A stretch of DNA of 32,000 nucleotides from Alkalilimnicola ehrlichii MLHE-1 (GCF_000014785.1 NC_008340.1:1680001-1712000), one strand, 5' to 3'; shown: positions 2 to 29,137, counted from the stretch's first letter. The notes: generated by a model not told the origin, from the letters alone. Program-made: numbers and translations.

Positions 2-2110
2 CTTACCCCGCAACTGGAGACGGACATCCGCGCCGCCGACAGCAAGACCCGGCTGGAGGACCTCTACCGCCCCTATCAGCCCAAGCGTCGCACCAAGGCC
101 CAGATCGCCCGGGAGCTCGGCCTGGAGCCGCTGGCCGACAGCCTGCTGGAGGACCCCTCGCAGGCGCCGGAGGCGCTGGCCGCGGACTATCTGGTGCCCG
201 CGGGCCCGGACGGCAAAGGCGGCGTCCCCGATGCCCAGGCGGCACTGGACGGCGCCCGTCAGATCCTGATGGAGCGCTTCGCCGAGGATGCCGAGCTGGT
301 CGGCCGGCTGCGCGAGTGGGCCTGGGGCAACGCCCGGCTGCGCAGCCGGGTTATCGAGGGCAAGGAGCGGGAGGGCGCCAAGTTCCGTGACTACTTCGAG
401 CACGAGGAGCCGCTGGCCCGCATCCCCTCCCACCGTGCGCTGGCCCTGTTCCGCGGCCAGAGCGAGGATATCCTGCAATTGAGCCTGATCTGGGAAGGGG
501 AGGACGGCGAGAGCCCCACCGCGGAGGGCATGATCGCGCGCCGCTTCGGTATCCGTCATGGGGACCGTCCCGCCGACGACTGGCTGGCCCGCACCGTGCG
601 CATGAGCTGGCGCGTCAAGCTGTCGCTGCAGCTGGAACTGGCCCTGAAGCGCCGGCTGCGCGAGGCCGCCGAGGAGGAGGCCATCCGCGTCTTCGGGCGT
701 AACCTCAACGACCTGCTGCTGGCCGCCCCGGCCGGTGCGGTCGCCACCATGGGGCTGGACCCGGGCATCCGCACCGGGGTCAAGGTGGCCGTGGTCGACG
801 GCACCGGCAAGGTGGTAGACACCGCGACGGTGCACCCCTTCCCCCCGCGCAATGACCGCAACGGTGCCCTGGCCACCCTCGCCGGGCTGGCCAAGCGGCA
901 CGCCGTCCGCCTGGTGGCCATTGGCAATGGCACCCATTCGCGCGAGACCGATGCCCTGGTGGCGGAACTGATGCAGGCCATGCCGGAACTCCCACTCACC
1001 CGGGTCACCGTCTCCGAGGCCGGGGCCTCGGTCTACTCGGCGTCTGAGTACGCCAGCCGTGAACTGCCGGAACTGGACGTGGCCCTGCGCGGGGCGGTCT
1101 CCATCGCCCGGCGCCTGCAGGACCCGCTGGCCGAGCTGGTGAAGATCGAGCCCAAGGCCATCGGCGTCGGCCAGTACCAGCACGATGTCAGCCAGGTGAA
1201 GCTGGCGCGCACCCTGGACAACGTGGTGGAGGACTGCGTGAACGCCGTGGGCGTGGACGTGAACACCGCCTCCGCCCCGCTGCTCGCCCGGGTCGCCGGC
1301 CTCACCCCCGCGCTGGCCGAGAACGTGGTCAGCCACCGCGACCGGCACGGGCCCTTTCCCGACCGGAAGACCCTGCTCGAGGTGCAGCGCCTGGGCCCCA
1401 AGGCCTACGAGCAGTGCGCCGGTTTCCTTCGGATCCGCGGTGGCCGCAATCCCCTGGATGCCAGCGCCGTCCACCCGGAGGCCTATCCGGTGGTCGAGCG
1501 GATCCTCAAGGACAGCGGCAAGTCCATTGACCAGCTCATCGGCGACAGCCCATTCCTGCAGCGGCTCGAACCGGCCCGCTACACCGATGACCAGTTCGGC
1601 GAGCCGACGGTGCGCGACATCCTCGCCGAGTTGGACAAACCCGGTCGTGACCCGCGCCCGGAGTTTCGCACCGCCCGCTTCCGCGAGGGGGTGAACACCC
1701 TGCAGGACCTGGCGCCGGGCATGGTGCTGGAGGGAACGGTCACCAACGTGACCAACTTCGGCGCCTTCGTCGATATCGGTGTCCACCAGGACGGTCTGGT
1801 GCACATCTCGGCGCTGGCCGAGCGCTTCGTGCGCGACCCGCACGAGGTGGTCAAGGCCGGCGACATCGTCAAGGTGAAGGTCATGGAGGTGGACCTCGAG
1901 CGCAAGCGCATCGGCCTGTCCATGCGCCTGGATGACGAACCCGGAGAGGGCCGGTCGCGCCGCGGCAGCAAGCCGGCCGATGGCGCCGCGGCCCGGCGGG
2001 GTAAGGGCGGCAAGGACAACCGGCCCCAGGGGGGGCGCGGCGCCCGTCGCGAGGAGAAGCCCATGGGTGCCATGGCCGAGGCACTGGCGGCCCTGAAAAA
2101 GGGGCAATGA
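2..2110 (+). CDS. tex: Tex-like transcription accessory protein (N-terminus cut by window edge), C-terminal S1 RNA-binding domain
   Basis: Frame 2 is open from nt 2 and reads [46 protein letters not shown], the conserved Tex core. It continues into ORF 194..2110. S1 motif [31 protein letters not shown] lies near the C-terminus. Stop TGA 2108-2110. Confidence 0.9.
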
Positions 2111-4461
2111 GCGACGCCGGTACGCCACTGCCCATCGACGCCCTGCGCGCGGATTTCGCGCAGGCCCTGGCCGCGGGCCACGTGGTGGTTACGGCCGCCA
2201 CCGGGTCGGGGAAATCGACCCGGCTGCCGGTCTGGGCCCGGGAGCATGGCCGGGTACTGGTGGTCGAGCCGCGGCGGCTCGCCGCCACCAGCCTGGCCCG
2301 CTTTGTCGCCCGCACCCTGGACACCCGTCTCGGCGGCGGCGTCGGCTACGCCATCCGCCTGGATGCCCGCCACGGTCCCGATACCGAGGTGGTGTTTGCA
2401 ACCCCGGGGATTGCCTTGCGCTGGTATGGCGAAGACCGGCTGCGCGGCTTTACCACGGTGGTGCTGGATGAGTTTCACGAGCGGCGCTGGGATACCGACC
2501 TGCTGCTGGCGCTGCTCCAGGCCGGGGCGAGCCACCGCCTGGTGGTCACCTCGGCCACCATCGCCGGCGCCCGGCTGGCGCAACATCTAAGCGCACGGCA
2601 CCTCAGCTCCGAGGGCCGCAGCCATCCGGTGGACATCGAATACCGGGCCCCGCAGCCCCGCGCCATGCCGGAGACCCGGGACCTGGCGCGGCGGGTCGCC
2701 GGGGCCGTGCAGAGCACCCTGCAGGCCCAATCCGGCGATTGCCTGGTGTTCTTGCCCGGCAAGGGCGAGATCCAGGCCTGTTACCAGGCCCTAAAGGGGA
2801 TCGGGGCCACGGTGCTGCGGCTGCACGCCAGCGCACCGGCGGCGGATCAGGCGGCCGCGCTGGCAGCGCCGGCGCCCGATGCCCCGCCCCGGGTCATCCT
2901 CTCCACCAACGTGGCGGAGACCTCGCTGACCGTCCCCGGGATCACCGCGGTGATCGACAGCGGGCTGGAGCGGCGCACCCACCGTCGTAACGGACGCACC
3001 GTGCTCAGCCTGCAGCCCATCGCCCGCGCCAGCGCCGATCAACGGGCCGGCCGCGCCGGGCGCCTGCAACCGGGCCGCTGCCTGCGCCTCTGGGGCCATC
3101 AGGCACCGCTGGCCGCGGTCACCCCGCCCGAGATCCAACGCGAGGACCTCAGCGATCTGGTCCTTGCGGCCGCCTGCGCCGGGGCCCGGGCCGAGGCCCT
3201 GCCCTTCCCCGAGCCCCTGCCCGCACCGGCGTTGGAGCAGGCCGTGGCCGGCCTGAGGGCGCTGGGCGCCCTGGACCCGCAGGGCCGGGCCACCGAGCGG
3301 GGGCATCGGCTCTTTCAGCTCCCGGTGGACACCGAACTGGCGCACCTGGCGGTGGCCATGCCGGATACGGAGAGCGCCGGTTTCATGGCCGATCTGGCCG
3401 CCGCGCTCAGCACCGGGCGCCGCTGGGTTCAGCCGCCAGCCGACCCGGCGGACGAGGACGCGCTGGCCCGTGCCCTGCCCCGGCGCTGTGACGCCACCCT
3501 GCTGGTCGCGGCGTTGCGCCTCGACAAACTGCCGGGGGTGCGGGTGGACCGCGCCAGCCGCAAGGAGGCCCGGCGTCTGGCCGACCAACTCCGGGGGCTG
3601 ATGAACCTGCCCGCGCGGCCGGTAGCCCTGGAGGGGGACCCGACCGCGGCCTTTGCCGCAGCCGTCCGGGCCCTGCCCCGGCGCACCTACGTCCGGCGGG
3701 AGCGGCGCCGCCAGGCCATGGGCAACGGCGGTGATGAATTGTTGATCAGCGACCAATCGCGACTGGACCCCGAGGCCGAGGCGGCCCTCTGCCTGGATGA
3801 GCACAGCGTTCCGGGCCGGGGCACCCGCCAGACGGTGACCCTGGGAACCTGTCTCGCACCGGTCCCGCTGCAGGCCCTCCTCGACGCCGGGCTGGCGGAG
3901 GCCACCCTGCAGGCCCCCCGGCTGGAGGAGGGCCGGCTGCTGGCCCGGCGCAGTTGGCGGTACGCCGGCCGCACCCTCCACAGCGAGGACGTGGTGCCGG
4001 AGGGCGCCCCGGCACGGGAGGCCATGGCCGAACTGATCCTGGCCGACCGGCTGTTGCGACCAGCCGGCGCACGACTACGTGACGACCTCGCCGCCTGGGC
4101 GCTGTACGTGGCGCTGGGCCAGGGTCAGGGCACGGTGCCCTCCCCCCGGCCGTGGCTGGTGGAGCAGCTGACCGAGCTAGGGGTGGAGAACCAGGAGGAT
4201 CTGCAACTGATCGAGCCTGAGGACCTCGCGTTCGAGGGCGTGCCGGAATGGGAGCGGGCGCGCTTCGATGAGCACTACCCGCGCCGGATCCAGCTACCGG
4301 ACCTGCTGCTCCAGGTGCACTACGACGTGCGGCGCCGAGTCATCACTGTGGAGAAGGTCCGCGGCAGCCGCAAACGGGACCCGCAGCGCTGGGAGCTGCC
4401 GGCCTGGCCGGGGTGGCGGATCAAGTACCAACGCGCCAGCCGGGTGGTGGAGGTGCGGTGA
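2107..4461 (+). CDS. DEAH/HA2-type ATP-dependent helicase (HrpB-like N-terminal two thirds, unassigned C-terminal ~330 aa)
   Basis: 784 aa ORF. Motif [14 protein letters not shown], motif II DEFHER, motif III SAT, motif [12 protein letters not shown]2-like segment [42 protein letters not shown] 2107 overlaps the tex stop (ATGA). Confidence 0.85.
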
Positions 4462-4501: not shown

Positions 4502-5497
4502 TCAGCGGTATAGGCCGATCAGGCCGCGGGCCACCGTGGCGATCTCCTGTCGCAGCCGTTGCGGGCGCAGGACCTCCACCTTGTCCCCGAAACCGAGCAA
4601 CCACCAGCGCAACTGGTGGGTGTCCTCCACCTCGGCACGCACCCGTACCCAGCCGGAATCGCCCTGCTCCCGCTCCAACTGCTGGTCCGGAGCCAGGGGC
4701 GTCTCCTGCAGGTGGTAGCCGGCATCCGGGGCGAAGCGGGCCTCCAATTCGATGGCGCACGCGCCGGCGCGATAGTCGAACCCACCCTTGCGGATCCAGT
4801 CATCCAGGTCGAACCCCTCCGGCGTTCGCGCCGGCGCATCCAGGAGCCTGGCCGCCTGAAAGCGGTGCAGGGCCAGCGGCAGGACGTCCGGGTAATCCCA
4901 CAGCGACGCCACCAGGTAGGCCACCGCATCGCGGAAGGCCAGCCCCAGCGGGTTGACCCGGTACTGGCGCGGACCGCCGCTGCGGGGCACATAGGTGGCC
5001 TCCAAGCACCGGCCCTCGAGCAGCCCGTGATAGAGCACCTCCACCACGGCGGGCTGAACCTCCGGCGGGTGCAGGGGCTGATACCGCGGCAGGATGCGGA
5101 TGCGCTCACGCCACTGCGCCAATCGCCCCCCCGCCGTGCTCAACGCCCGCCTTGCCTGGAGGAAGTGGGGCTCCAGATGCTTGACCACCCCTTTCGGCAG
5201 CATGTCGCCCAGGTGCTCCTCGACCAGACAGAAGGTCAGCGCGGTCGGTGGGTCCATGTGTGGCAGTTCAATCAGGGCCCCATCGCCTTTCCAGGACCAT
5301 CCATGGGGTAGTTCCCGCTCATCGCAGATCAGCGGGAACATCGCCGAGAGCCGCTGCAGATCCCGCTGCACCGTCCGGTGGGTGACCGAGAAGCCCAGCT
5401 CTGCCAGCCGATTCCGGATCTGGGTGCTGGAGACCTTGCGGGGCTCCCGGGGGATCAGCCGGAGGGTCTGCAGGTGGCGAATGCTGGTTTCCGACAT
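4502..5497 (-). CDS. WYL-domain transcriptional regulator (wHTH-WYL-WCX architecture, YafY/CapW/BrxR-like)
   Basis: 331 aa. N-terminal wHTH VSSTQIRNRLAELGFSVTHRTVQRDLQRL. Central WYL-like block RVNPLGLAFRDAVAYLVASLWDYPDVLPLALHRFQAARLL. C-terminal WVRVRAEVEDTHQLRWWLLGFGDKVEVLRPQRLRQEI. GGAGGA sits 6 nt upstream of ATG (complement of 5495-5497). Confidence 0.85.
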   Translation of the reverse strand: MSETSIRHLQTLRLIPREPRKVSSTQIRNRLAELGFSVTHRTVQRDLQRLSAMFPLICDERELPHGWSWKGDGALIELPHMDPPTALTFCLVEEHLGDMLPKGVVKHLEPHFLQARRALSTAGGRLAQWRERIRILPRYQPLHPPEVQPAVVEVLYHGLLEGRCLEATYVPRSGGPRQYRVNPLGLAFRDAVAYLVASLWDYPDVLPLALHRFQAARLLDAPARTPEGFDLDDWIRKGGFDYRAGACAIELEARFAPDAGYHLQETPLAPDQQLEREQGDSGWVRVRAEVEDTHQLRWWLLGFGDKVEVLRPQRLRQEIATVARGLIGLYR

Positions 5498-5771
5498 CCA
5501 TCGTCCTCCATCGCGCTACGCAGGCGCTGCCGGTTCCACTTATTTCCATACGTGACGCCATGCCTTTCTTATAAAATGCCACACCCCCATAAAAACGCCT
5601 ACATGCGACAAATGGTGTCGGTTCGCACCGAGCCCCGCCGTCGGGCGCGCGAGGCACGGGGAAAATGCGCGGCAGTGGCATTCAGCTAAGGTATAGTCAG
5701 TCGTCGGTGTCATGGCGCACGCACTCAGCCCATGCACCAGCCATCCGCGAAGGTGTCCCGAAGGAGGCCCC
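5498..5771. promoter_or_regulatory. Divergent promoter/leader region between the WYL regulator and the ATP-grasp operon
   Basis: 274 bp non-coding gap between divergent start codons. It contains a locally AT-rich patch (about 5540-5615, e.g. cttataaaatgcc, ccataaaaacgcc) in an otherwise GC-rich context. No confident -35/-10 pair or operator palindrome could be fixed by eye. Confidence 0.4.
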
Positions 5772-6995
5772 ATGGAAAAGAACCCCGACAAAGGTTTTGT
5801 AGCCCTGCTGGGCTGGAGCCTGAACGCCGTTGAAGCCGCTGAGAACTTCGACCGGCGCTACGTGGTGGTGGCCCCGGACTGGGCCGAGGATTACTGTCAA
5901 CAGCACAATATCCCCTATGTGCCCTGGAACTTCGAGCGCCTCAACGACCGCTCAATGGAGATCGCCCAAACCCTCAAGGACATGGGCGTGGATGTCGCCA
6001 TCCCGCTGTTCGAAGAGACCGTGGAGTGGGCGGGGGCCATCAATGCGGTGTTGTTGGACAGCCCCAAGCTGCTGGGTCAATCGATGCTGCTGCGCGACAA
6101 GTCGCTGATGAAACGCCGCGCGCAGCTCGGCGGTATCCGGGTGGGCATCTTCGAGGAGGCCCATGACAAGGATGACGTCATCCGTTTTCTCAAGCGGGTC
6201 AACCAGACGCTGCTAAAGCTGGACGGCGATCCCAACGACCCCATCCACTTCAAGGCGTTCGACAAGGCCGGCTGCCTCGGCCATCGGGTCATCCGCACCC
6301 CGGATGACGTCGATACCATCCCCGAGGAGGAGTTTCCGGCGCTGATGGAGTCCCATCTGGACGGCTGGGAGTTCGCCGTGGAGGCGTGGGTCCAGAACGG
6401 CAAAATCCGCTTCATGAATATCTCCGAGTACGTCACCCTGGGCTACTCGGTGTTCGTGCCCGCCTCGCCGGAACTCGAGGCCCACCGGCCCGCCATCCGA
6501 AGGGAGCTGGAAAAGCTCATCAAGGCCTTCGACATCGAATTTGGCTTCGTCCACCCGGAGTACTTCGTCACCAACGACAACGAGATGTATTTTGGCGAAG
6601 TGGCCTACCGGCCGCCGGGCTTCAAGGTCTTCGAGCTGCTGGAGCGGGTCTACGGCTTCAACGCCTACCAGGGGCTGATCCTCTGCTTCGACCCCAAGAC
6701 CACCGAGGAGGAGATCACGGCCTTCTTCCCGCGCGAGGTGGTGGATGCGGATGGGCATGCCGGCTGTTTCGGCGTCTATCCGCGGCGCCGTGTGGTCAGC
6801 CGCCTGGAGATCCCGGAGGAGACCGAGAATCACCCCTACTTTGAGTCCCACGAGCTAACCCCGCCACTGGAGGAGACGGTGACCAAGCGCACCGCCTTCG
6901 GTACCCACTGGGGCCTGATTTACTTCCGCGGCGAGGACCCCCACGTGCTTCGGGATCTGCTGAAACACCAGGAGGATCTGGACTTCTACGTCTAG
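5772..6995 (+). CDS. ATP-grasp fold ligase (carboxylate-amine/amidoligase type), substrate unknown
   Basis: ORF 5712..6995. The preferred start is ATG 5772 (MEKNPDKG), preceded by AAGGAGG at 5761-5767. ATP-grasp landmarks: LLRDKSLMKRRAQLGGIRV, HFKAFDKAG (Lys strand), ESHLDGWEFAVEAWVQNGKIRF, and FVHPEYFVT...MYFGEVAYRPPG, which resembles the PurK/PurT-type EVAPRP Mg-ATP loop. Confidence 0.8.
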   Translation: MEKNPDKGFVALLGWSLNAVEAAENFDRRYVVVAPDWAEDYCQQHNIPYVPWNFERLNDRSMEIAQTLKDMGVDVAIPLFEETVEWAGAINAVLLDSPKLLGQSMLLRDKSLMKRRAQLGGIRVGIFEEAHDKDDVIRFLKRVNQTLLKLDGDPNDPIHFKAFDKAGCLGHRVIRTPDDVDTIPEEEFPALMESHLDGWEFAVEAWVQNGKIRFMNISEYVTLGYSVFVPASPELEAHRPAIRRELEKLIKAFDIEFGFVHPEYFVTNDNEMYFGEVAYRPPGFKVFELLERVYGFNAYQGLILCFDPKTTEEEITAFFPREVVDADGHAGCFGVYPRRRVVSRLEIPEETENHPYFESHELTPPLEETVTKRTAFGTHWGLIYFRGEDPHVLRDLLKHQEDLDFYV

Positions 6996-7036
6996 CGTTG
7001 CATTATGGAGCCAAACGACGCGGTCAGGGAGTCAGC

Positions 7037-9061
7037 GTGAGCGATCAGGATCATCCCGGGGTGCCACCGGAGGACAGGCTCCGTCCATTGCTGAAGCAAC
7101 TGGACGCGGCCATCCATGCCTTGGCGCAGTCCCCCACCTTCACCAAGGCCACCCGGCTGCCCCGGGTGCTGGACATCGCCCGCCGGGTGATGCTCCAGCC
7201 CGGGGGCTGCACGGCCGTCGAGGAGCGGGCCGCGGCGTTGGAAGAGGCCGGGGTCTTCGCCGGCTCGGACTGGGCCACCCCGGAGATCCTGGTGCCGACC
7301 CTGTCCACCCACGCCTTGGGCAGCCCCGATGCCAACACGGTCGTGGTGGAGGCCCTCAGCCAGTTGCGGATGCTCGCCGTGGCCACCGGCGGCTACACCC
7401 ACCCAACCCTGTCGTCAGAGCAGGCCCACCACTTTCTGACCCAGGTCCTGGCCCTGAACCTCAACTACCTCTTCCTGGCCCCCAGCGAGGCGGAGCGGAC
7501 CGCCCAGGGGCGCCTGGCGCAACTGCCAAGGGCGCTGTTCATGCACCTGGCAGAGCGCATCGGCTACGAGCACGTGATCGACCGGCTGATCGATGAGATC
7601 TGGCGCATCCTTCAGCAGCGTCCGATCCAGACCGAGGCGGTCAAGCGGATGGTCACCCAGATCGCCATCTGCCGCGCCAATCCGGCGATCGACCTGGGGG
7701 CCAGCGGCCACGGCGCGGAGCGGCTGGTCAGCAGCCTGTTCGGCCCTACCCAGGGGTGCCGGGAGGACCCCGGCGTGGCGGTCTATGAGCAGCGGCTGGC
7801 GAGTATGGACGGCGGCGCCCTGCAATCGGAGGCGATCGGTTTCGCCCGCGCCATGCACGACACCGGCCTGGTCTCCCCCTACCACCCGGTACTGCTCCGC
7901 TTCCTGCTCGGCCACGGTGATCACTTGGTGGCCGAGGCCATGGGGCTGTCCGCCACCGGGCGCGACTGTTTGCTCTGCTACTCCGACCTGGTCCGGGCAC
8001 TGATCAATGAAGCGGTCCACCCAGACACCGCTCAGGCGATATACGGCCTCGCCCTGCTGCTGGAGCGAGGCAGCCTGTACCAGCCGCCGGTGGCCCCCGC
8101 CCTGTGGCGTCAGCTGGCGCTGCCGCTGTCCGAATGGGCGCGAGAGCGGCTGCACGCGGCCACCGGCGCGACGGTCCATCCGGAGGCGCGGTTGCTGGAG
8201 GGGGTCCTCTGCCTGCTCGGGCAACCGCTGGGGGTGGGTCAGGGCAACAACCCCACCTGCCAGTCGGCGCGGGCCCTCTCCATGTGGGCCTACAACGACC
8301 CGGACTACCTGCTGCAGATGGTGGCCTGGGCGGCGCGCGATGACGAGATCATCATGCACTTCGAGGGCCAGCCCATATCATCGCGGGAGAGCGTTTCCGG
8401 TGTGGCCGATGAACTGCCCATGGACCTGGACCCGGTCTCGTTGCTGGTGGTCCCCCACCTAGACCGAATCTACGCCGAAATGGGACGCCGCTGTGCCAAC
8501 CGCCAGGGCGATCCCCACCGCTGGGTCAACCCGGAGTTCCACGGCTGGTGGGCAGGACGGGGTTTCCGCATCAACGTCGACGTGGACAGCGGCCGGCTTA
8601 CCGGCCTGGAGGACTTTCTCCGCCACTTCTACGCCTGCTACCACCCCTATTACAACGGCAATCAGCCCATTATTCATCCGCAGCCCGCGGGCGTGGCGGT
8701 CACCGACAGTGCCGCCCGGTTCATCGGCTGGCACGCCATCACCCTGCTCCGCGTGGCCCTCGACCCTTCCAACGTCATGCGGGTCTATTTCTACAATCCC
8801 AACAACGACAGCGGCCAGGACTGGGGGGATGGGGTGACGGTGAGCACCGCCGGTAACGGGGAGTACTACGGCGAGGCCTCCCTGCCCTTTCCGCAATTTG
8901 CCTCACGGCTCTACATCTTTCACTACGATCCGCTCGAGCGCGGCGAGCTGGCACGAATCAGCCAGGCGGAATTGGACGAGGTCGTCGGCCACATCCAGCG
9001 CAGCTGGGGGGCGGACCGCCTGCCGGAGATCGGCGACGGCGCCTGGACCCAGCAGCGGTAG
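7037..9061 (+). CDS. Large hypothetical protein: helical N-terminal ~400 aa plus C-terminal papain-like (clan CA-like) thiol peptidase/transglutaminase-like signature
   Basis: ORF 6998..9061 (687 aa from TTG 6998). GTG 7037 is preferred because GGGAG lies at 7027-7031. The gene starts 3-42 nt after the ATP-grasp stop, so it is probably in the same operon. Motifs: GQGNNPTCQSARALSMWAY (Gln415, Cys421 = nt 8258-8260) and GWHAITLLRVALDPSNVMRVYFYNPNNDSG (His579 = nt 8732-8734). No family recognised by eye. Confidence 0.75.
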   Translation: MSDQDHPGVPPEDRLRPLLKQLDAAIHALAQSPTFTKATRLPRVLDIARRVMLQPGGCTAVEERAAALEEAGVFAGSDWATPEILVPTLSTHALGSPDANTVVVEALSQLRMLAVATGGYTHPTLSSEQAHHFLTQVLALNLNYLFLAPSEAERTAQGRLAQLPRALFMHLAERIGYEHVIDRLIDEIWRILQQRPIQTEAVKRMVTQIAICRANPAIDLGASGHGAERLVSSLFGPTQGCREDPGVAVYEQRLASMDGGALQSEAIGFARAMHDTGLVSPYHPVLLRFLLGHGDHLVAEAMGLSATGRDCLLCYSDLVRALINEAVHPDTAQAIYGLALLLERGSLYQPPVAPALWRQLALPLSEWARERLHAATGATVHPEARLLEGVLCLLGQPLGVGQGNNPTCQSARALSMWAYNDPDYLLQMVAWAARDDEIIMHFEGQPISSRESVSGVADELPMDLDPVSLLVVPHLDRIYAEMGRRCANRQGDPHRWVNPEFHGWWAGRGFRINVDVDSGRLTGLEDFLRHFYACYHPYYNGNQPIIHPQPAGVAVTDSAARFIGWHAITLLRVALDPSNVMRVYFYNPNNDSGQDWGDGVTVSTAGNGEYYGEASLPFPQFASRLYIFHYDPLERGELARISQAELDEVVGHIQRSWGADRLPEIGDGAWTQQR

Positions 9062-9421
9062 TCAGCCCCCCTCCCCATTGGGGCGGGCGAAGACCAGCAC
9101 GCCGGACTGGCTGGACTGCAGGATACCGCCAAAGGGCAGCGGCTGCTCCGCACCCGCCTCGAGGTAGGGACGCAGGGGCTCGAACGGAGCGTCCCGCTTT
9201 AGCAGATAGGCCTCGCACTGGTGGCCGAAGGGGAAGTCCTGCTCGGAGAAGCAATACCAGAAATAACGGGGCCCCCAGGGGGTGTCCAGCCGGGCCTCGT
9301 ACACCCGGTGGTACATCCGCTCCTCGTACTTCCAGTCCCGTGCATTCACACTCCGAAACGCCAGTGTCACTGCGTCCTGTCCCGCCCCGACGGTATAGCT
9401 GTGCGGGTTATCTCTCCACAT
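9062..9421 (-). CDS. Hypothetical protein, 119 aa, Trp/Tyr/Phe-rich, no recognisable domain
   Basis: ORF 9062..9448 (TTG start). ATG at the complement of 9419-9421 is preferred, with GGAG 7 nt upstream. Third-position GC is high and the amino-acid composition looks globular. Its stop is directly adjacent to the stop of the 7037..9061 gene. Confidence 0.6.
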   Translation of the reverse strand: MWRDNPHSYTVGAGQDAVTLAFRSVNARDWKYEERMYHRVYEARLDTPWGPRYFWYCFSEQDFPFGHQCEAYLLKRDAPFEPLRPYLEAGAEQPLPFGGILQSSQSGVLVFARPNGEGG

Positions 9422-9620
9422 TGGTGCACTCCGGTCGTTGGTCGACAATGGCAGCAGACATTACCGTACTGGACCGCCCGATACCATTACCAATAAGCCA
9501 CTATGCCGTTCGGCGTGGTCCGCACGCCCCGGCACGGAGCCGGCCACTGCCCATCCACTTGCAAGCCCCCGAAAAACTGCCAGCATAGATTGTGTACCCC
9601 CACCCGCAGCGGAGTACCCC

Positions 9621-9908
9621 ATGAGCGAGCGCAACGAGTATCTCGAGAAGATCAAGGCAAAGATCGACGAATGGAACGCGGACATCGAAAAGCTGCAGGC
9701 CAAGGCCCGCCAGGCGGAGGCCGAGGCACGGATCCGCTACCGCGACCAGATCGAAGAACTGCGACGCCAGCGCAATCGCGCCGAGGAAAACCTCAAGGAG
9801 GCGCGGGGGGCCAGCGAGGAGGCGTTCCGCGAGATGCGCACGCGCTTGGAAGGGGCCTGGGATGACATCTCTAAGGCCTTCCGCAAGGCCGTCGATCGGT
9901 TCAAGTGA
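9621..9908 (+). CDS. Small coiled-coil protein (95 aa), function unknown
   Basis: The internal ATG 9621 of ORF 9438..9908 is preceded by GGAG (9611-9614). Sequence MSERNEYLEKIKAKIDEWNADIEKLQAKARQAEAEARIRYRDQIEELRRQRNRAEENLKEA is a charged heptad-like helix. A strong terminator follows. Confidence 0.7.
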   Translation: MSERNEYLEKIKAKIDEWNADIEKLQAKARQAEAEARIRYRDQIEELRRQRNRAEENLKEARGASEEAFREMRTRLEGAWDDISKAFRKAVDRFK

Positions 9909-25018: not shown

Positions 25019-25186
25019 ATGAAGACAGGAAAAGAAGACCGCATCAGCGAAATCACCCTCAAGCGGCTCACCCTCGAAGAACTCCAGGCCCTGGCCAAGC
25101 GGGTGGAAGACGAACTGGAGACCCGGGCCTTCGCCGAGAGCATGGAGGCTCAGGTGCGACTGTTCATGCGGCGACGCGACGCCTGA
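25019..25186 (+). CDS. Tentative small ORF (55 aa, charged helical peptide)
   Basis: Not in the ORF track (below its length cut-off). ATG 25019 to TGA 25184-25186 encodes MKTGKEDRISEITLKRLTLEELQALAKRVEDELETRAFAESMEAQVRLFMRRRDA. Third-position GC is high, like real genes, but there is no clear SD. Confidence 0.35.
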   Translation: MKTGKEDRISEITLKRLTLEELQALAKRVEDELETRAFAESMEAQVRLFMRRRDA

Positions 25187-25221
25187 CCGGCGTCGGCCGC
25201 CCCTTCGCCAGGCAGGCCCCC

Positions 25222-26226
25222 ATGCGCCGTCCCGCAGGTTTCACCGCCCTGGCCCTGATACTGGTCTTCCTGCTGGCGGCCTGCAGTGTCCACGGGGCGG
25301 ACCCGAGGGCGCCGGCCGGGCCCGGCAGTGCGCACCTCGAGCCCGGCCATGTCCGCATGGGCGACGGCGAGCCGCTGCGGCTGCGCCGTTTCGGGCCGGA
25401 ACAGGCACCTGACGCGGTGGTCCTGGCACTGCACGGGCTGAACGACCGTGCCGAGGCCTTTGTCAGCCTCGGCGAGACCCTCGCCGACCACGACATTGCG
25501 CTCTACGCCTACGACCAACGCAGCTTCGGCGCCAGCGCCTATCAGGGCCGGTGGCCCGGTGAAGCCACCCTGGTGGAGGACAACCTCGCCATTCTGGCCG
25601 CGCTCAGAGAGCGCTACCCCCATCGCCCCCTCTACCTGGCCGGCGAGAGCATGGGCGCCGCGGTGGCCATCCTGGCCGCCGCCCACGCCCCCGATGCCGC
25701 TGATCGCCTGATCCTGCTCTCCCCGGCCACCTGGGCCCGGCGCACCCAGCCATGGTACCAGCGCCTGGCCCTTTGGCTGGCGGTCCGCCTGATCCCGGAG
25801 CGCACCTTCACCGGCGAGTCCCTCGGTATCCGGCCCACCGACAACGAGGCCGAATTGCGGGCCCTGGGCCGGGACCCGCTGTTCATCAAGGAGACCCGGG
25901 TGGCCACCCTCTACGGGGCCACCAACCTGATGGACCATGCCCTGGAGCGGGCCGCCCAGCTCCAGACCCCCACCCTGCTGCTCTACGGGGCCCACGACGA
26001 AATCATCCCCCCTGAGGCCATCTGCGCGCTGATCCGGCAACTGCCCCCGACGCTGGATTGGCACTTCGCCTGGTACCCCGACGGCTGGCACATGCTCACC
26101 CGGGACCTGAGCGGCGAGCGCGTGCGTACAGACCTCGCCGCCTGGATCCACGACCCCGGCGCCGCCCTGCCCTCAAACGCCCTCCGCCCCGCCGACGAGG
26201 CGGTGCACCGCCTCTGCCCGCGCTGA
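25222..26226 (+). CDS. Lipoprotein alpha/beta hydrolase (lysophospholipase/monoacylglycerol-lipase-like)
   Basis: 334 aa. Lipobox LLAAC (LILVFLLAACSV), oxyanion HGLNDR, nucleophile elbow GESMGAAVA, acid GAHDEIIP, His DGWHML. Confidence 0.85.
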   Translation: MRRPAGFTALALILVFLLAACSVHGADPRAPAGPGSAHLEPGHVRMGDGEPLRLRRFGPEQAPDAVVLALHGLNDRAEAFVSLGETLADHDIALYAYDQRSFGASAYQGRWPGEATLVEDNLAILAALRERYPHRPLYLAGESMGAAVAILAAAHAPDAADRLILLSPATWARRTQPWYQRLALWLAVRLIPERTFTGESLGIRPTDNEAELRALGRDPLFIKETRVATLYGATNLMDHALERAAQLQTPTLLLYGAHDEIIPPEAICALIRQLPPTLDWHFAWYPDGWHMLTRDLSGERVRTDLAAWIHDPGAALPSNALRPADEAVHRLCPR

Positions 26227-26301: not shown

Positions 26302-26495
26302 AGTTAGCGTTCTCAGCTTATTCATTATCAATATAAGGGACGTGGCCGGATGGCGACTCGAACCTTCCCGGTCAGAGCGCTCTTTACGGAGCACTGCACT
26401 ATATTTTCCGGCGGATAGGGATCACTGGCCGGCCATCCTTGGAAAGGACACGCGTCAACCAGATGCAAGAAGCGCCAGAGGGCGCGGAGGAGATA

Positions 26496-27866
26496 ATGAG
26501 CAACCGTAGCATCAAAACAGAACGCGCAATCCATAAAGCGCTTACCGAGGCAGGTCTGTCCCGTCGTGATTTCCTGCGCTACTCCGGTGTCGGCGCCATC
26601 GGCGCCAGCGCCGTTATGGGCACCGGCGCCCTGCTGCACAGCGGCGAGGCCCAGGCGGTCACCACCAATGCCCGCGTGGTCATCGTAGGCGCCGGCGCGG
26701 CCGGTATCTCCTGTGCCAACCGCCTCAACCGCCAGCTCCGGGGCGCCGATATCACCGTCATCGACCGCCGGGAAGACCACCAATACCAACCCGGTCTGAC
26801 CCTGGTGGCCACCGGCGTCTGGGAGCGCGATAAGGTCGTCGACCGCAACGCCAACTTCCTGCCCTCGGGCGTGAACTGGGTCAAGGCCATGGTCAAGGAG
26901 TACGACCCCGACAACAATCGGGTGATCACCGATGACGGTCAGACCATCGAGTATGACTACCTGATGGTGGCCACCGGGCTGCAGGTCAACTACGACGCCT
27001 ACGAAGGCTACAGCCGCGAGCTGATCGGCGACCATGGCATCGGCTGCGTCTATGACAACGCGGATCATGCCGCCCGCACCTGGCGCCAGATCGACCGCTT
27101 TACCCAGAGCGGCGGCAAGGGCCTGTTCATCCGCCCGCCCGGTGCCATCAAGTGCGCCGGCGCGCCGCTGAAGGTCACCATGCTGACCGAGGACCGTCTG
27201 CGCCGCCGCGGCACCCGTGCCAATACCGAAATGCACTATTTCGCGCCGGGCACCGGGATGTTCTCCCAGCCGGATATCGACGAGTTCCTCAAGGGGCACT
27301 TCCCGGAGCGCGATATCAACCTGCACTGGCACCACGTGGTCAAGGGCATCGACCCGGCGGCCCAGGAGGTGGTCTTCGATACCCCCGACGGTGAGCGTAC
27401 GGAGGATTACGACTTCATCCACCTGGTGCCGCCGATGAGCGCGCCCGACAGCCTGCGCAACAGCGCCCTGGCCGCCGGCGAGGACAGCAACTTCACCGGC
27501 TGGCTGGAGGTGGACCGTTACACCATGCAGCACCAGCGCTACGAGAATGTCTTTGGCGCCGGTGACATCAACGGCGTGCCGATCGGCAAGACGGCCGCCA
27601 GCGTCAAGGCGCAGGTGCCGGTCGCCGTGAATAACATGGTGTCCCACATGCAGGGGCGGGAGATGACCGAGTCCTATGACGGCTACACCTCCTGCCCGCT
27701 GATCACCGGTATTGGCAAGGCGATCCTGGTGGAGTTCGATTACAACCTGGACATGGTGCCGTCCTTCCCCTTCATCAGCCCCTACGACGAGCACTGGGTG
27801 CCCTGGGTGATGAAGGACCGCCTGCTGCATGGCGCCTACAACGCCATGATGCGCGGCCGGGTATAA
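26496..27866 (+). CDS. sqr: Type II (SQOR-like) sulfide:quinone oxidoreductase with Tat signal peptide
   Basis: The internal ATG 26496 of ORF 26439..27866 is preceded by GGAGGAG (26486-26492). Twin-arginine motif LSRRDFLRYSG. FAD fold VVIVGAGAAGISCANRL. HQYQPGLTLV. Redox cysteines in AIKCAGAPLKV and YDGYTSCPLITGIGKAILVEFDY match, from memory, the human SQOR motifs IKCAGAP and YTSCPLVTG. Confidence 0.85.
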   Translation: MSNRSIKTERAIHKALTEAGLSRRDFLRYSGVGAIGASAVMGTGALLHSGEAQAVTTNARVVIVGAGAAGISCANRLNRQLRGADITVIDRREDHQYQPGLTLVATGVWERDKVVDRNANFLPSGVNWVKAMVKEYDPDNNRVITDDGQTIEYDYLMVATGLQVNYDAYEGYSRELIGDHGIGCVYDNADHAARTWRQIDRFTQSGGKGLFIRPPGAIKCAGAPLKVTMLTEDRLRRRGTRANTEMHYFAPGTGMFSQPDIDEFLKGHFPERDINLHWHHVVKGIDPAAQEVVFDTPDGERTEDYDFIHLVPPMSAPDSLRNSALAAGEDSNFTGWLEVDRYTMQHQRYENVFGAGDINGVPIGKTAASVKAQVPVAVNNMVSHMQGREMTESYDGYTSCPLITGIGKAILVEFDYNLDMVPSFPFISPYDEHWVPWVMKDRLLHGAYNAMMRGRV

Positions 27867-27902
27867 CGCCGCCCCGGTATCGGACGAATCCAAAGGAGGA
27901 AA

Positions 27903-28298
27903 ATGATCATGGCCTTTTCGTTGATGGGTATTATTACAGTCGTGCTGGAGGTCTTCCGGGGCCTGCTGCCGTTCGTTCTGCTCTGGGTGGTCATCGACCT
28001 GGCGCTGCTTGGCCTGTTTATTGCCCGCAAGTCCTCCCGCAGCGTCAACCTGGCGCTGCCGGTGAAGGCGTCGGTGGGGGTTGGTGTGGTGGTGGCCGTA
28101 GTGGCCTTCATCATGCTGCCCGGCTTCACTGGTGCCAGCTTCGCCAACCTGAGCGGCGCGCTGGACTATCTCTCCCTGATCGGCGGCAGCATCGGCTTTG
28201 GCGTGGCCTTCGGCGTCCTCGCCTTCCCGCCGCTGCTCTACGTCCTTGGCCTGGGCCCCAGCGAGAGCCACGCCGGGAGCACTGCCACCCAGTCCTGA
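27903..28298 (+). CDS. Small integral membrane protein (about 4 TM helices), co-transcribed with sqr
   Basis: 131 aa. AAAGGAGGA lies immediately upstream of ATG 27903. Hydrophobic segments: FSLMGIITVVLEVF, LLPFVLLWVVIDLALLGLFIA, VGVGVVVAVVAFIMLPGF, LSLIGGSIGFGVAFGVLAFPPLLYVL. Confidence 0.75.
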   Translation: MIMAFSLMGIITVVLEVFRGLLPFVLLWVVIDLALLGLFIARKSSRSVNLALPVKASVGVGVVVAVVAFIMLPGFTGASFANLSGALDYLSLIGGSIGFGVAFGVLAFPPLLYVLGLGPSESHAGSTATQS

Positions 28299-28322
28299 CC
28301 GGCCCATCCGCCGGTGACACCA

Positions 28323-28357
28323 AGCCCCGGGGGCCCGCCCCGGGGCTTTTGCGTTTT
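28323..28357 (+). terminator. Rho-independent terminator of the sqr operon
   Basis: 10 bp stem AGCCCCGGGG (28323-28332), loop GCCCG, stem CCCCGGGGCT (28338-28347), followed by TTTTGCGTTTT. Confidence 0.85.
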
Positions 28358-28468
28358 CACAAGGTATGATTCCGGTCAACAAATGGTACGCTGTTAGCGA
28401 GGCCACCCCGTAGTCGGACGGGTGAAATGGGGCCGGCCTCTCACGGTACGGCGAGAAGAGGGCGCCAC

Positions 28469-29137
28469 ATGGAAACGGGTTCCCCAGGCTACCGCGTGGG
28501 GACGGCCGACCCGCTTACCCGGGGCGATCCGGCGGATTGGCTGCAGGCGTTGCGCGACGGCACGCGGGCCGCTCACCAGCGGGTAGAAAGCCACCCCGTA
28601 CTCCTGCCGCTGCAATCGGATCGGCTCACCATGGCGCAGTATCGCCGGGCGCTAGCGGTCTTTCTCGCCTATTTCGCCGCCCTGGAGGCGGTGTTACCCC
28701 CCTGGCTCGAACGCTTCCCGCAAGCGGGCTACCGCTACCTGCCGCGCCACCCCCTGATTCGGCGCGACCTGATGGATATCGGTGCCGTACTGCCAGAGGG
28801 CCATTCGGGCGCCGTTCCCCAGCTGATCTCGCGCAACCACCTGCTGGGCGTGCTCTACGTGCTGGAAGGGGCCACCCAGGGCGGCCGTGTGATCGCGCCC
28901 CGCCTGCAGCGGCGGCTCGGACTCGATGCCCGGCGCGGGGCGCGCTACTTTCATCTCTACCACGCCGGCCAATGGCGCAGCTTCCGGGCGTCGCTCGGCG
29001 GGGCTGCCCCCCGGGGCGGGCTTGAACAGGCACTCGCCGGGGCGCGGTCGACCTTCCATGCCCTTGAGGCGCACCTCGCTGCAGCTAATAGCGAACAGCC
29101 CAAGGAGAGCCTCCATGGCGCCTACCGACCCCTCTGA
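28469..29137 (+). CDS. bphO: Heme oxygenase (biliverdin-producing, BphO-like)
   Basis: ORF 28427..29137. LRDGTRAAHQRVESHP (proximal His helix) and LYVLEGATQGGRVIAP are heme-oxygenase-like. It lies directly upstream of, and overlaps, a bacteriophytochrome gene. The start is ATG 28469 (GAGGG 6 nt upstream) or ATG 28427. Confidence 0.8.
   Translation: METGSPGYRVGTADPLTRGDPADWLQALRDGTRAAHQRVESHPVLLPLQSDRLTMAQYRRALAVFLAYFAALEAVLPPWLERFPQAGYRYLPRHPLIRRDLMDIGAVLPEGHSGAVPQLISRNHLLGVLYVLEGATQGGRVIAPRLQRRLGLDARRGARYFHLYHAGQWRSFRASLGGAAPRGGLEQALAGARSTFHALEAHLAAANSEQPKESLHGAYRPL

What the first reader, a model, noticed from the sequence alone, without database searches (positions are those of the whole stretch)
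4502..9448. Candidate uncharacterised WYL-regulated module: ATP-grasp ligase plus large thiol-peptidase-like protein plus abutting 119 aa protein
A wHTH-WYL-WCX regulator is transcribed divergently from a tightly packed two-gene operon, and a 119 aa unknown gene ends back-to-back with the second gene. WYL regulators of this architecture (CapW, BrxR, PafBC relatives) are known to sit next to stress- or phage-induced modules and repress them until a ligand is sensed. Pairing an ATP-dependent amidoligase with a putative cysteine peptidase recalls ligase/peptidase peptide-tagging systems described in comparative genomics, such as RimK-type ligases with dedicated peptidases. I do not recognise this particular pair as a named system. 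Working hypothesis: inducible ATP-dependent ligation of an amino acid or peptide onto a protein or metabolite, with the peptidase-like partner processing or reversing it. A small-metabolite biosynthetic role (L-amino-acid ligase plus BtrH-like transferase) is an alternative.
Basis: inference. Interest (0 to 1): 0.75.

Follow-up and report, generated by a model that had tools for sequence, protein, structure and literature searches.

The report
Conserved ATP-grasp ligase and cysteine-enzyme pair
The two central genes are a real, very strongly conserved, uncharacterised enzyme pair (an ATP-dependent ligase plus a new kind of cysteine enzyme) found mainly in salt-loving and marine bacteria and probably acting on a small nitrogen-rich metabolite, while the neighbouring WYL regulator and the 119-aa gene are local neighbours, not part of a conserved system.

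Summary
Only the two middle genes form a unit.

**The pair.**
- GRASP (5772-6995) and BIG (7037-9061) are adjacent and co-oriented in 80/80 genomes found through GRASP. The same holds in all inspected loci of a diverged clade (halophilic Bacillota, marine Myxococcota).
- GRASP is 80-89% identical across several phyla, although synonymous sites are near saturation and GC3 matches each host.
- GRASP is an intact ATP-grasp enzyme; its nearest solved relatives are L-amino-acid ligases.
- BIG has no Pfam, NCBIfam, PADLOC or PDB relative. A confident AlphaFold model shows a helical solenoid plus an alpha/beta domain with invariant Gln402-x5-Cys408, His566 and Asn587, which looks papain-like.

**The neighbours.**
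- The WYL regulator and the 119-aa gene accompany the pair only in one close relative.
- There are no viral hits, and the single plasmid hit is a 1.8-Mb replicon.

**Context elsewhere.** Recurrent partners are argB/C/D/J, GNAT or hexapeptide acyltransferases, HDAC-like and M20 deacylases.

**Verdict.** This is a carrier-free ligase plus Cys-acyl-enzyme cassette, most likely for a small (ornithine or N-acetyl-amine related) metabolite. It is not a WYL-controlled defence or tagging module. The chemistry is unknown and I found no description of it.

The parts
5772..6995 (+). GRASP: 407-aa ATP-grasp carboxylate-amine ligase, first gene of the conserved pair
   Evidence: The sequence is an exact match to ABI56824.1. 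Pfam ATP-grasp_4 scores E=5e-5, below the gathering cut-off here, but PF13535 is precomputed for many homologues. A profile search hits the L-amino-acid ligase RizA (4wd3) at E=3e-8 and BL00235 (3vot) at 1e-4. K149, K161, E193-x-H195-L196, H261-P-E263 and E276-V-A-x-R280-x-x-G283 are invariant across clades. Identity is 80-89% across phyla.
7037..9061 (+). BIG: 674-aa protein of an unmodelled family, second gene of the conserved pair
   Evidence: The GTG start has an AGGGAG ribosome-binding site and the sequence matches ABI56825.1 exactly. It has no Pfam, NCBIfam or PADLOC hit, and no significant PDB sequence hit. The family comprises only 279 clusters at 50% identity among 1.84 billion representative proteins. 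The AlphaFold2 model has pLDDT 88.3 and pTM 0.82.
7067..8221 (+). BIG N-terminal all-helical solenoid (residues about 11-395)
   Evidence: DSSP on the model shows about 25 helices and no strands. Foldseek gives only weak ARM/HEAT-type matches. This domain is less conserved than the C-terminal domain: median identity 0.63 against 0.79 in the core clade.
8222..9001 (+). BIG C-terminal alpha/beta domain with the putative papain-type catalytic set: Gln402 (8240-8242), Cys408 (8258-8260), His566 (8732-8734), Asn587/Asn589/Asn590 (8795-8806)
   Evidence: All these residues are invariant in 94 sequences that go down to 34% identity. Cys408 lies at the N-terminus of helix 408-420 and His566 lies in strand 562-575. 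The codons were checked by translation. Weak Foldseek matches to papain-like peptidases appear in two libraries, with probability 0.14-0.47 for the named papain-like matches.
5498..5771 (.). Divergent intergenic region holding the GRASP-BIG promoter and the WYL-gene promoter
   Evidence: Sequence blocks shared with the close relative L091 lie at about 5555-5613 and about 5683-5700, the latter containing TATAGT. The ribosome-binding site AAGGAGG precedes ATG 5772. There is no consensus sigma-70 match and no Rfam element.
4502..5497 (-). wHTH-WYL-WCX regulator: an adjacent gene that is not a conserved partner of the pair
   Evidence: Pfam WYL and WCX match, and PADLOC WYL models match. It sits next to the pair only in A. 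ehrlichii and in relative L091. It is absent near the pair elsewhere.
9062..9421 (-). 119-aa hypothetical protein abutting BIG tail-to-tail: lineage-restricted, not a conserved partner
   Evidence: The sequence matches ABI56826.1. It is 89% identical in L091/L092 and has no homologue in the other loci. It has no Pfam or NCBIfam hit and no significant PDB hit.

Best explanation
GRASP and BIG form a self-contained, chromosomally resident two-enzyme cassette, transcribed as one operon from the 5498-5771 region.

**Proposed mechanism (inferred).**
1. GRASP, an ATP-grasp enzyme of the L-amino-acid-ligase type, activates a carboxylate as an acyl-phosphate and joins it to an amine.
2. BIG uses Cys408, with His566, Asn587 and the Gln402 oxyanion residue, to form a thioester acyl-enzyme with that product or intermediate.
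3. BIG then passes the acyl group to an amine (transacylation, slightly favoured) or to water (amidase).
4. The helical solenoid of BIG probably docks GRASP, so the two work as a complex without a carrier protein.

**Proposed substrate pool (inferred from context in other phyla).** A small nitrogen-rich metabolite derived from ornithine or from an N-acetylated amino acid or amine. Acetyltransferases and deacetylases may add and remove a protecting group.

**Proposed role (inferred).** The host range suggests adaptation to saline or marine life, for example an organic solute or conjugate.

**Status of each claim.** Shown: the obligate pairing, the conservation, the intact catalytic motifs, the predicted fold and the recurrent contexts. 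Inferred: the complex, the reaction, the substrate and the physiological role. The WYL regulator may control the operon locally in Alkalilimnicola, but it is not part of the system.
For: **Pairing.**
- In 80/80 loci BIG lies directly downstream of GRASP on the same strand. The same holds in Halobacillus, Paludifilum, Gracilibacillus, the Nannocystaceae and Polyangiaceae MAGs and unnamed assemblies whose BIG is closest to theirs, Mycobacterium and Desulfurispira.
- The gene gap ranges from a 4-nt overlap to 83 nt.
- Pairwise identities of the two proteins correlate: r=0.93 overall, 0.65 within the core clade.

**Constraint without recent spread.**
- GRASP amino-acid identity is at minimum 0.80 and at median 0.85, with 234 of 407 columns invariant.
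- The proportion of synonymous differences is 0.46-0.86, and GC3 ranges from 0.53 to 0.96 with the host.

**Enzymology.**
- GRASP motifs are intact and its nearest solved relatives are L-amino-acid ligases.
- BIG has invariant Q402-x5-C408, H566 and N587 on a confident model, with the Cys at a helix N-terminus and the His on a strand. Weak papain-like Foldseek matches appear in two libraries.

**Small-molecule context.**
- In L082, L084, L086 and L089 (a Nannocystaceae MAG, a Polyangiaceae MAG and two unnamed assemblies) the operon reads argC-argB-argD-NAGS-like GNAT-argJ-GNAT-GRASP-BIG. It has a divergent sigma-54 activator and nearby M20 amidohydrolase, aminotransferases and amino-acid symporters.
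- An HDAC-type deacetylase lies within 1.6 kb or less in at least 5 independent arrangements, three of them directly adjacent.
- A hexapeptide acyltransferase lies directly upstream in mycobacteria. Eis-like GNATs lie downstream in Bacillota.

**Precedent.** ATP-grasp and papain-fold transacylases cooperate in closthioamide and butirosin assembly (PMC7183216).

**Host range.** Halomonadaceae, Marinobacter, Alcanivorax, Methylophaga, Ectothiorhodospiraceae, Halobacillus, Gracilibacillus, Pontibacillus and marine Myxococcota.
Against: - No substrate or product is known, and nothing here tests activity.
- In the core clade, which includes this window, the pair stands alone in varied housekeeping contexts without arg, GNAT or HDAC genes. 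The metabolic inference is therefore imported from other clades, and from only 14 of about 100 loci for the HDAC-like gene.
- The fold assignment for BIG rests on motifs and topology. No Foldseek match is significant (best E=0.07; the named papain-like matches have E of 0.25 or more).
- A 385-residue solenoid and 57% invariant residues in the ligase are more typical of proteins that bind macromolecules than of small-molecule enzymes.
- Some hosts are not halophiles (Mycolicibacter, Neobacillus, Azoarcus), and the enrichment in halophiles was not tested statistically.
- GRASP-BIG complex formation is not shown.
Confidence: 0.45

Rival explanations
1. Protein or peptide modification cycle. GRASP adds an amino acid to a carboxylate of a specific, highly conserved cellular protein. 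BIG recognises that protein through its solenoid and removes or trims the tag with its Cys peptidase domain. The analogy is to tubulin tyrosine ligase with vasohibin, or to RimK acting on ribosomal protein S6.
For: - The large helical solenoid resembles protein-binding repeat domains; the weak Foldseek matches are ARM/HEAT proteins.
- Sequence constraint is exceptional: 57% invariant columns in GRASP and 0.79 median identity in the BIG catalytic domain. A macromolecular partner would explain this.
- In the core clade the pair has no metabolic neighbours.
Against: - There is no conserved third gene or candidate target next to the pair. No small ORF is conserved across lineages in the 500 nt upstream or 400 nt downstream.
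- GRASP groups with free-amino-acid ligases, not with RimK or TTL families.
- The operons with argBCDJ, GNATs, deacylases and amino-acid transporters point to a small-molecule precursor supply.
Confidence: 0.2
2. This is a WYL-repressed, stress-induced or phage-induced module (with the 119-aa protein as a third component) that ligates an amino acid or peptide onto a target as a defence or stress response.
For: - A genuine WYL-WCX regulator is divergently transcribed from the operon across a 274-bp region.
- The arrangement and some intergenic sequence blocks are kept in one related genome.
- Relatives of this WYL protein elsewhere sit beside a UvrD-like helicase and an SOS-response peptidase-like gene. 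This fits the family's known link to DNA-damage or defence regulons (general knowledge).
Against: - WYL and the 119-aa gene are absent from about 95 other loci that carry the pair. No WYL Pfam hit appears in the 12 loci with precomputed Pfam annotation other than L091, the close relative.
- Other lineages have a divergent sigma-54 activator (L082-L089) or no adjacent regulator among the precomputed annotations.
- There are no PADLOC hits for GRASP, BIG or the small protein. There are no relatives in viral contigs and only a 1.8-Mb replicon among the plasmids.
- Slow evolution and host-matched GC3 are the opposite of what defence genes usually show.
- The WYL gene could equally serve itself or the convergent Tex/DEAH-helicase operon.
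Confidence: 0.07
3. Synthetase plus dedicated amidase for the same bond, as in glutathionylspermidine synthetase/amidase. GRASP makes an amide conjugate. BIG hydrolyses it, and the redox state of Cys408 sets the steady-state level.
For: - The domain logic is the same as E. coli Gss, which combines an ATP-grasp synthetase with a papain-fold CHAP amidase (established knowledge, not tested here).
- A polyamine or acetyl-amine flavour is present in some contexts: HDAC-type (acetylpolyamine-amidohydrolase-like) genes and a spermine-synthase-domain gene in L089.
- The nucleophile Cys is invariant.
Against: - No sequence relation to Gss or CHAP families was detected.
- A strictly co-transcribed maker and breaker at 1:1 is unusual outside fused enzymes.
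- This explanation cannot be told apart from the transacylase version with the present data.
Confidence: 0.15
4. Carrier-dependent (thiotemplated) or ribosomal-peptide pathway. This would be either a CtaD/CtaG-type or BtrJ/BtrH-type assembly on a phosphopantetheinyl carrier protein, or a graspetide-type ligase acting on a precursor peptide that BIG then cleaves.
For: ATP-grasp and papain-fold transacylase pairs are proven in closthioamide and butirosin biosynthesis (PMC7183216). Graspetide clusters combine ATP-grasp ligases with peptidases (PMC8939145 abstract).
Against: - No carrier-protein (PP-binding) family appears among the Pfam annotations of the 13 annotated loci.
- No small ORF is conserved next to the pair across lineages.
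- The 41-nt gap between the two genes cannot hold one.
Confidence: 0.05

Closest known systems
L-amino-acid ligases of the ATP-grasp_4 group (RizA 4wd3, BL00235 3vot, YwfE/BacD type)
   Same: They are the best solved-structure relatives of GRASP (profile E=3e-8 and 1e-4). Size is similar (about 410 aa). They share the E-x-A-x-R-x-G-G type catalytic loop (alignment) and work without a carrier.
   Different: Similarity covers only the central and C-terminal ATP-grasp core and is weak. Known L-amino-acid ligases work alone or in antibiotic clusters. None is known to be tied to a 670-aa Cys-enzyme partner or to be conserved at 85% across phyla.
ATP-grasp plus papain-fold transacylase pairs: CtaD/CtaG (closthioamide) and BtrJ/BtrH (butirosin)
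   Same: An ATP-grasp ligase cooperates with a clan-CA Cys-His-Asp/Asn enzyme that forms an acyl-enzyme and makes, rather than breaks, an amide bond (PMC7183216).
   Different: Those systems are thiotemplated on PCP/ACP proteins and lie in antibiotic gene clusters. Here no carrier protein is present in any annotated locus. BIG has an extra 385-residue solenoid and no detectable sequence relation to BtrH or C39-like families. The pair behaves like a conserved core-genome function.
Glutathionylspermidine synthetase/amidase (Gss) and trypanothione synthetase
   Same: They combine an ATP-grasp amide synthetase with a papain-fold Cys amidase that act on one small-molecule amide (established knowledge).
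   Different: In Gss the two activities are fused in one polypeptide and belong to other sequence families (GSP_synth, CHAP). No hit to either was found here.
NAGGN osmolyte pathway (Ngg GNAT-ATP-grasp fusion plus AsnO)
   Same: A GNAT and an ATP-grasp make an N-acetylated dipeptide solute in response to salt (established knowledge). The L082-L089 operons place a GNAT directly before GRASP.
   Different: The ATP-grasp family and the partner enzyme differ. There is no AsnO-type amidotransferase in the cassette, and no product is known.
WYL-regulated defence modules (CapW/BrxR type)
   Same: A wHTH-WYL-WCX regulator is divergently transcribed from an operon.
   Different: The linkage is confined to one lineage. 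The cargo matches no defence family and is neither mobile nor phage-associated.

Membership tests
WYL-regulated defence/stress module (CapW/BrxR-like) | A regulator with wHTH-WYL-WCX architecture lies next to the module | tested here: met
   Pfam WYL E=2e-10 and WCX E=2.6e-20. The HTH hits are only weak. PADLOC WYL models score E=4e-31.
WYL-regulated defence/stress module (CapW/BrxR-like) | Regulator and cargo are linked across genomes | tested here: not met
   No WYL relative was found by tblastn in 80 loci or by a subfamily HMM in about 95 loci. No WYL Pfam hit appears in the 12 Pfam-annotated loci other than L091, the close relative. Relatives of this WYL protein sit beside other genes.
WYL-regulated defence/stress module (CapW/BrxR-like) | The cargo belongs to a known or candidate defence family, or lies in mobile or phage contexts | tested here: not met
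   No PADLOC hits for GRASP, BIG or the small protein. No relatives in the viral contigs. One plasmid record, a 1.8-Mb replicon. Flanks are core-chromosomal.
WYL-regulated defence/stress module (CapW/BrxR-like) | The regulator binds the promoter and represses until a ligand is sensed | not testable with these tools
   The only data are sequence blocks in 5498-5771 shared with one relative.
ATP-grasp superfamily, L-amino-acid-ligase-like branch | ATP-grasp nucleotide-binding and Mg-binding motifs and the catalytic Arg loop are intact | tested here: met
   K149, K161, E193/H195/L196, H261-P-E263 and E276-V-A-x-R280-x-x-G283 are invariant in 13 sequences down to 46% identity. Pfam ATP-grasp_4 E=5e-5. 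PDB profile hits RizA at 3e-8.
ATP-grasp superfamily, L-amino-acid-ligase-like branch | ATP-dependent ligation of two free amino acids | not testable with these tools
   No biochemical data. No NCBIfam equivalog hit.
Papain-like (clan CA) cysteine peptidase/transacylase fold | Catalytic Cys at a helix N-terminus, oxyanion Gln about 6 residues upstream, His on a beta-strand, Asn/Asp on the next strand | tested here: met
   Q402-x5-C408, H566 and N587/N589/N590 are invariant in 94 sequences. Helix 408-420 and strands 562-575 and 581-586 appear in a model with pLDDT 88.
Papain-like (clan CA) cysteine peptidase/transacylase fold | Significant sequence or structure similarity to a known clan-CA family | tested here: inconclusive
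   No Pfam hit in any of 41 members and no PDB sequence hit. Foldseek gives only weak matches to Pd_dinase, staphopains and viral papain-like proteins (E of 0.25 or more, probability 0.14-0.47) using the whole two-domain model.
Thiotemplated ATP-grasp/papain-fold assembly (CtaD/CtaG, BtrJ/BtrH) | A phosphopantetheinyl carrier protein is encoded with the pair | tested here: not met
   No PP-binding family appears among the Pfam annotations of the 13 annotated loci.
RimK-type ligase with dedicated peptidase (peptide tagging) | The ligase belongs to the RimK family and a target or tag-related gene is conserved nearby | tested here: not met
   No RimK Pfam or NCBIfam hit. No conserved third gene and no conserved small ORF.
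Graspetide (RiPP) cluster | A precursor peptide gene lies adjacent to the ATP-grasp ligase | tested here: not met
   No small ORF in the flanks is conserved across lineages. The clusters found reflect within-family DNA synteny, for example the SRP RNA gene in Halomonas.

The most novel reading that the evidence does not exclude
The pair is a previously undescribed, carrier-free ligase/Cys-transacylase machine. It makes a new nitrogen-rich solute or conjugate, for example an ornithine-containing or N-acetylated dipeptide-like compound. The compound would be widespread in halophilic and marine bacteria of several phyla, and BIG would found a new papain-fold enzyme family whose solenoid clamps the ATP-grasp partner.
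Probability: 0.25. Interest if true: 0.8.

Novelty: new variant of a known kind. Interest (0 to 1): 0.6.

Why it matters
- A two-gene unit that stays 80-89% (ligase) and 55-80% (partner) identical from Gammaproteobacteria to mycobacteria, despite near-saturated synonymous sites, must do something important. Yet one partner has no family model, no significantly similar solved structure and no name.
- Its host range includes the model halophiles Halomonas elongata and Halobacillus halophilus. Its links to ornithine supply, acetyltransferases and deacetylases make a concrete question testable: is there an unrecognised metabolite or modification in salt-adapted bacteria?
- It would also extend the small set of cases where ATP-grasp and papain-fold enzymes build amide bonds together, here without a carrier protein.
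- For annotation, it shows that the WYL neighbour should not be used to label the pair as defence-related.

Tried and rejected
1. **Defence system.** PADLOC gave nothing for GRASP, BIG or the small protein. The viral-contig scan found no relative. The plasmid search found only a 1.8-Mb Halomonas replicon.
2. **Conserved WYL linkage.** tblastn and a custom HMM found none. A metagenome scan for WYL relatives returned six short contigs with unrelated neighbours.
3. **The 119-aa protein as a component or precursor.** It has no homologue outside the lineage, no family and no significant PDB hit.
4. **Recent horizontal sweep as the cause of the high identity.** Rejected because the proportion of synonymous differences is 0.46-0.86 and GC3 tracks the host.
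5. **First AlphaFold run with 32 close homologues.** It failed for the C-terminal domain (pLDDT below 50). It was solved by adding diverged homologues.
6. **Sequence route to a fold for BIG.** A PDB profile search gave only spurious PPR-repeat matches. A Pfam scan of 41 members gave nothing.
7. **Riboswitch or leader upstream of GRASP.** There are no Rfam matches. The conserved upstream block in Halomonas is the SRP RNA gene.
8. **Consensus promoter and terminator scan.** It was uninformative.
9. **Literature.** Nine full-text searches found no description of the pair. The library is incomplete, so this is not proof of novelty.
10. **Model coordinates.** They were not available for active-site geometry or a domain-only Foldseek search.

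Full report
**1. What is in the window**

The window comes from Alkalilimnicola ehrlichii MLHE-1; the proteins match that genome exactly. The region 4502-9448 holds four genes:

| Gene | Coordinates | Notes |
|---|---|---|
| WYL regulator | 4502-5497 (-), 331 aa | Pfam WYL and WCX; only weak HTH-like hits |
| GRASP | true start ATG 5772, ends 6995; 407 aa | AAGGAGG ribosome-binding site kept in a relative; homologues start there |
| BIG | GTG 7037 to 9061; 674 aa | AGGGAG ribosome-binding site; homologues and the database entry start there |
| SMALL | 9062-9421 (-), 119 aa | Its stop abuts the BIG stop with no spacer |

The flanks are core-genome:
- Upstream lie Tex and a DEAH helicase with partial similarity to HrpB.
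- Downstream lie an sll1863-family protein, tRNA-Arg, tRNA-Ser, csrA, lysC, alaS, recA and mutS.

**2. What belongs together**

A scan of one genome per GTDB species with GRASP found 298 relatives. In all 80 loci kept, a BIG homologue lies immediately downstream on the same strand. Homologues of WYL, SMALL, the helicase and the sll1863 protein were found in none of them.

- A profile built from this WYL subfamily also finds nothing in the six-frame translations of about 95 loci outside the Alkalilimnicola lineage.
- Only a close relative (GRASP 97%, BIG 88% identical) keeps the order helicase-WYL-GRASP-BIG-SMALL-sll1863.
- Relatives of the WYL protein (38-53% identity) from metagenomes sit next to other genes, including a UvrD-like helicase and an SOS-response-peptidase-like gene.
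- Neighbours of the pair in the core clade are just clade-specific synteny: TlyA, a mechanosensitive channel and the SRP RNA gene in Halomonas.
- No small ORF is conserved across lineages beside the pair.

The unit is GRASP plus BIG. WYL and SMALL are local neighbours.

**3. Conservation and spread**

GRASP is 84-89% identical to homologues in several phyla:
- Halomonadaceae, Marinobacter, Alcanivorax, Methylophaga, Ectothiorhodospiraceae, Guyparkeria and Wenzhouxiangella;
- Desulfurispira, a Planctomycetota MAG, and Mycolicibacter/Mycobacterium.

Among 55 full-length sequences:
- the minimum pairwise identity is 0.80 and the median 0.85, with 234 of 407 columns invariant;
- the proportion of synonymous differences is 0.46-0.86;
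- GC3 ranges from 0.53 to 0.96 with the host.

The genes are therefore long-resident and under very strong purifying selection, not recently spread.

BIG is 55-80% identical in the same set. Its C-terminal domain is the more conserved part: 0.79 against 0.63 for the N-terminal domain. GRASP and BIG distances correlate (r=0.93 overall, 0.65 within the core clade).

An exhaustive HMMER search of 1.84 billion cluster representatives found only 279 BIG-family clusters. A profile of the diverged members recovered a second clade, about 38% identical for BIG and about 50% for GRASP. It occurs in halophilic or halotolerant Bacillota (Halobacillus, Gracilibacillus, Pontibacillus, Thalassobacillus, Salimicrobium, Paludifilum) and in marine Myxococcota. 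The pair is intact in every locus inspected there.

There are no relatives in IMG/VR viral contigs, and the only plasmid hit is a 1.8-Mb Halomonas replicon.

**4. What the proteins are**

*GRASP.* It keeps the ATP-grasp lysines, the hinge, the Mg-binding glutamates and the E-V-A-x-R-x-x-G loop. Its best solved relatives are the L-amino-acid ligases RizA (profile E=3e-8) and BL00235. A diverged member also touches PylC, a 3-methylornithine-lysine ligase, weakly.

*BIG.*
- It has no Pfam, NCBIfam or PADLOC match, and this holds for 41 diverse members. It also has no PDB sequence relative.
- With a 94-sequence alignment, AlphaFold2 gives pLDDT 88.3 and pTM 0.82. The model shows a helical solenoid (residues about 11-395) followed by an alpha/beta domain.
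- In that domain, Cys408 opens a helix, Gln402 lies six residues before it, His566 is on a strand, and Asn587/589/590 follow on the next strand. All are invariant. Six residues is the spacing of the oxyanion Gln in papain (established knowledge).
- Foldseek finds nothing significant in the PDB or BFVD libraries. Papain-like peptidases recur among the weak matches: Pd_dinase, staphopains, and giant-virus papain-like and cathepsin proteins.

I conclude that BIG is a new family with a probable clan-CA-type active site. Membership of any known peptidase family is not shown.

**5. Clues to the substrate**

- **Nannocystaceae and Polyangiaceae MAGs and related unnamed assemblies.** The pair ends operons that read argC, argB, argD, a short NAGS-like GNAT, argJ and a second GNAT of 188-204 aa (60-67% identical between loci). 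These operons have a divergent sigma-54 activator and nearby M20 amidohydrolase, aminotransferases and Na-coupled amino-acid carriers.
- **HDAC-type deacetylase (PF00850).** It lies within 1.6 kb of the pair in at least five independent arrangements. It is directly adjacent in L082, L051 and L012, one gene away in L006 and L019, and nearby in the H. elongata group.
- **Mycobacteria.** A hexapeptide acyltransferase lies directly upstream.
- **Bacillota.** An Eis-like GNAT lies downstream; in Halobacillus it is followed by DDAH/ADI-like and DUF2817 genes.

None of these genes is in the present window. Most core-clade loci lack them too, so the link is suggestive, not general.

**6. Mechanism**

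The best-supported reading is a carrier-free pair. An L-amino-acid-ligase-type enzyme makes an amide through an acyl-phosphate. A Cys-His-Asn enzyme then takes the acyl group as a thioester and hands it to an amine or to water.

- Experimental precedent for ATP-grasp and papain-fold enzymes building amides together exists for closthioamide (CtaD/CtaG) and butirosin (BtrJ/BtrH) (PMC7183216). Those need a carrier protein, and none is found here.
- Glutathionylspermidine synthetase/amidase is the precedent for the maker-plus-breaker version.
- Tight gene spacing (from a 4-nt overlap to 83 nt), co-variation and the solenoid suggest a complex, but this is inference.
- The solenoid and the extreme constraint keep a protein-modification cycle alive as the main rival.

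**7. Verdict**

The WYL-controlled, phage-inducible or stress-inducible framing and the inclusion of the 119-aa gene are not supported.

The pair itself remains uncharacterised and unusually conserved. I found no paper describing it in nine searches of an incomplete library. I rate it a new variant of a known kind, with interest 0.6.

Noticed in passing
window 9624-9908 (+): An sll1863-family stress-response protein (NCBIfam NF052504, E=1.8e-30) lies just beyond the 119-aa gene. It keeps this position in the close relative L091. To my recollection, sll1863 is strongly salt-induced in Synechocystis, which would fit the halophile theme, but the adjacency is lineage-specific.
   Followed up: partly
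window 194-4461 (+): Tex (194-2110, N-terminus possibly upstream) overlaps by 4 nt the start of a 784-aa DEAH helicase. The helicase resembles HrpB only over its first ~440 residues and scores below the HrpB cut-offs. The WYL gene is convergent with this operon and might relate to it rather than to the ligase pair.
   Followed up: partly
L008 7676-7772 and L038 7673-7769 (-); L103; L104: In Halomonas the SRP RNA gene sits about 230 bp upstream of GRASP. The pair also lies a few kb from dnaX-ybaB-recR in both Halomonas elongata and the firmicute Gracilibacillus. This is an odd repeat of genomic location across phyla and may be chance.
   Followed up: no
L051 11290-12944 (+): The HDAC-like deacetylase directly downstream of BIG in this MAG is split into two ORFs (Pfam positions 2-99 and 187-297). 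This is a frameshift, a pseudogene or an assembly error.
   Followed up: no
L084 8205-11683 (+) and 11962-13578 (+): Two unannotated proteins (590 and 568 aa, no NCBIfam hit) follow BIG on the same strand in one diverged locus. A reverse-transcriptase-domain gene comes next.
   Followed up: no
L097 596-4074; L099 1220-2062: Relatives of the WYL regulator sit beside a 915-aa unknown protein plus a UvrD-like helicase (GAGSGKT motif), and beside an SOS-response-associated-peptidase-like gene. This suggests the WYL subfamily's usual partners are DNA-damage or defence genes.
   Followed up: partly
window 28926-31184 (+): A bacteriophytochrome-type sensor (PAS_2-GAF-PHY) is fused to a GGDEF diguanylate cyclase.
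   Followed up: no
window 25150-26151 (-) and 26328-28406 (-): Two long ORFs (333 and 692 aa) have no Pfam hit at E<=1e-5. I did not check whether they are real genes, and ORFs of similar length overlap both on the + strand (25222-26226, 26439-27866).
   Followed up: no
window 5001-7000: G+C drops to 0.62-0.63 against about 0.70 nearby, although GRASP GC3 is 0.86. The dip reflects the constrained amino-acid composition of the ligase rather than recent acquisition.
   Followed up: yes
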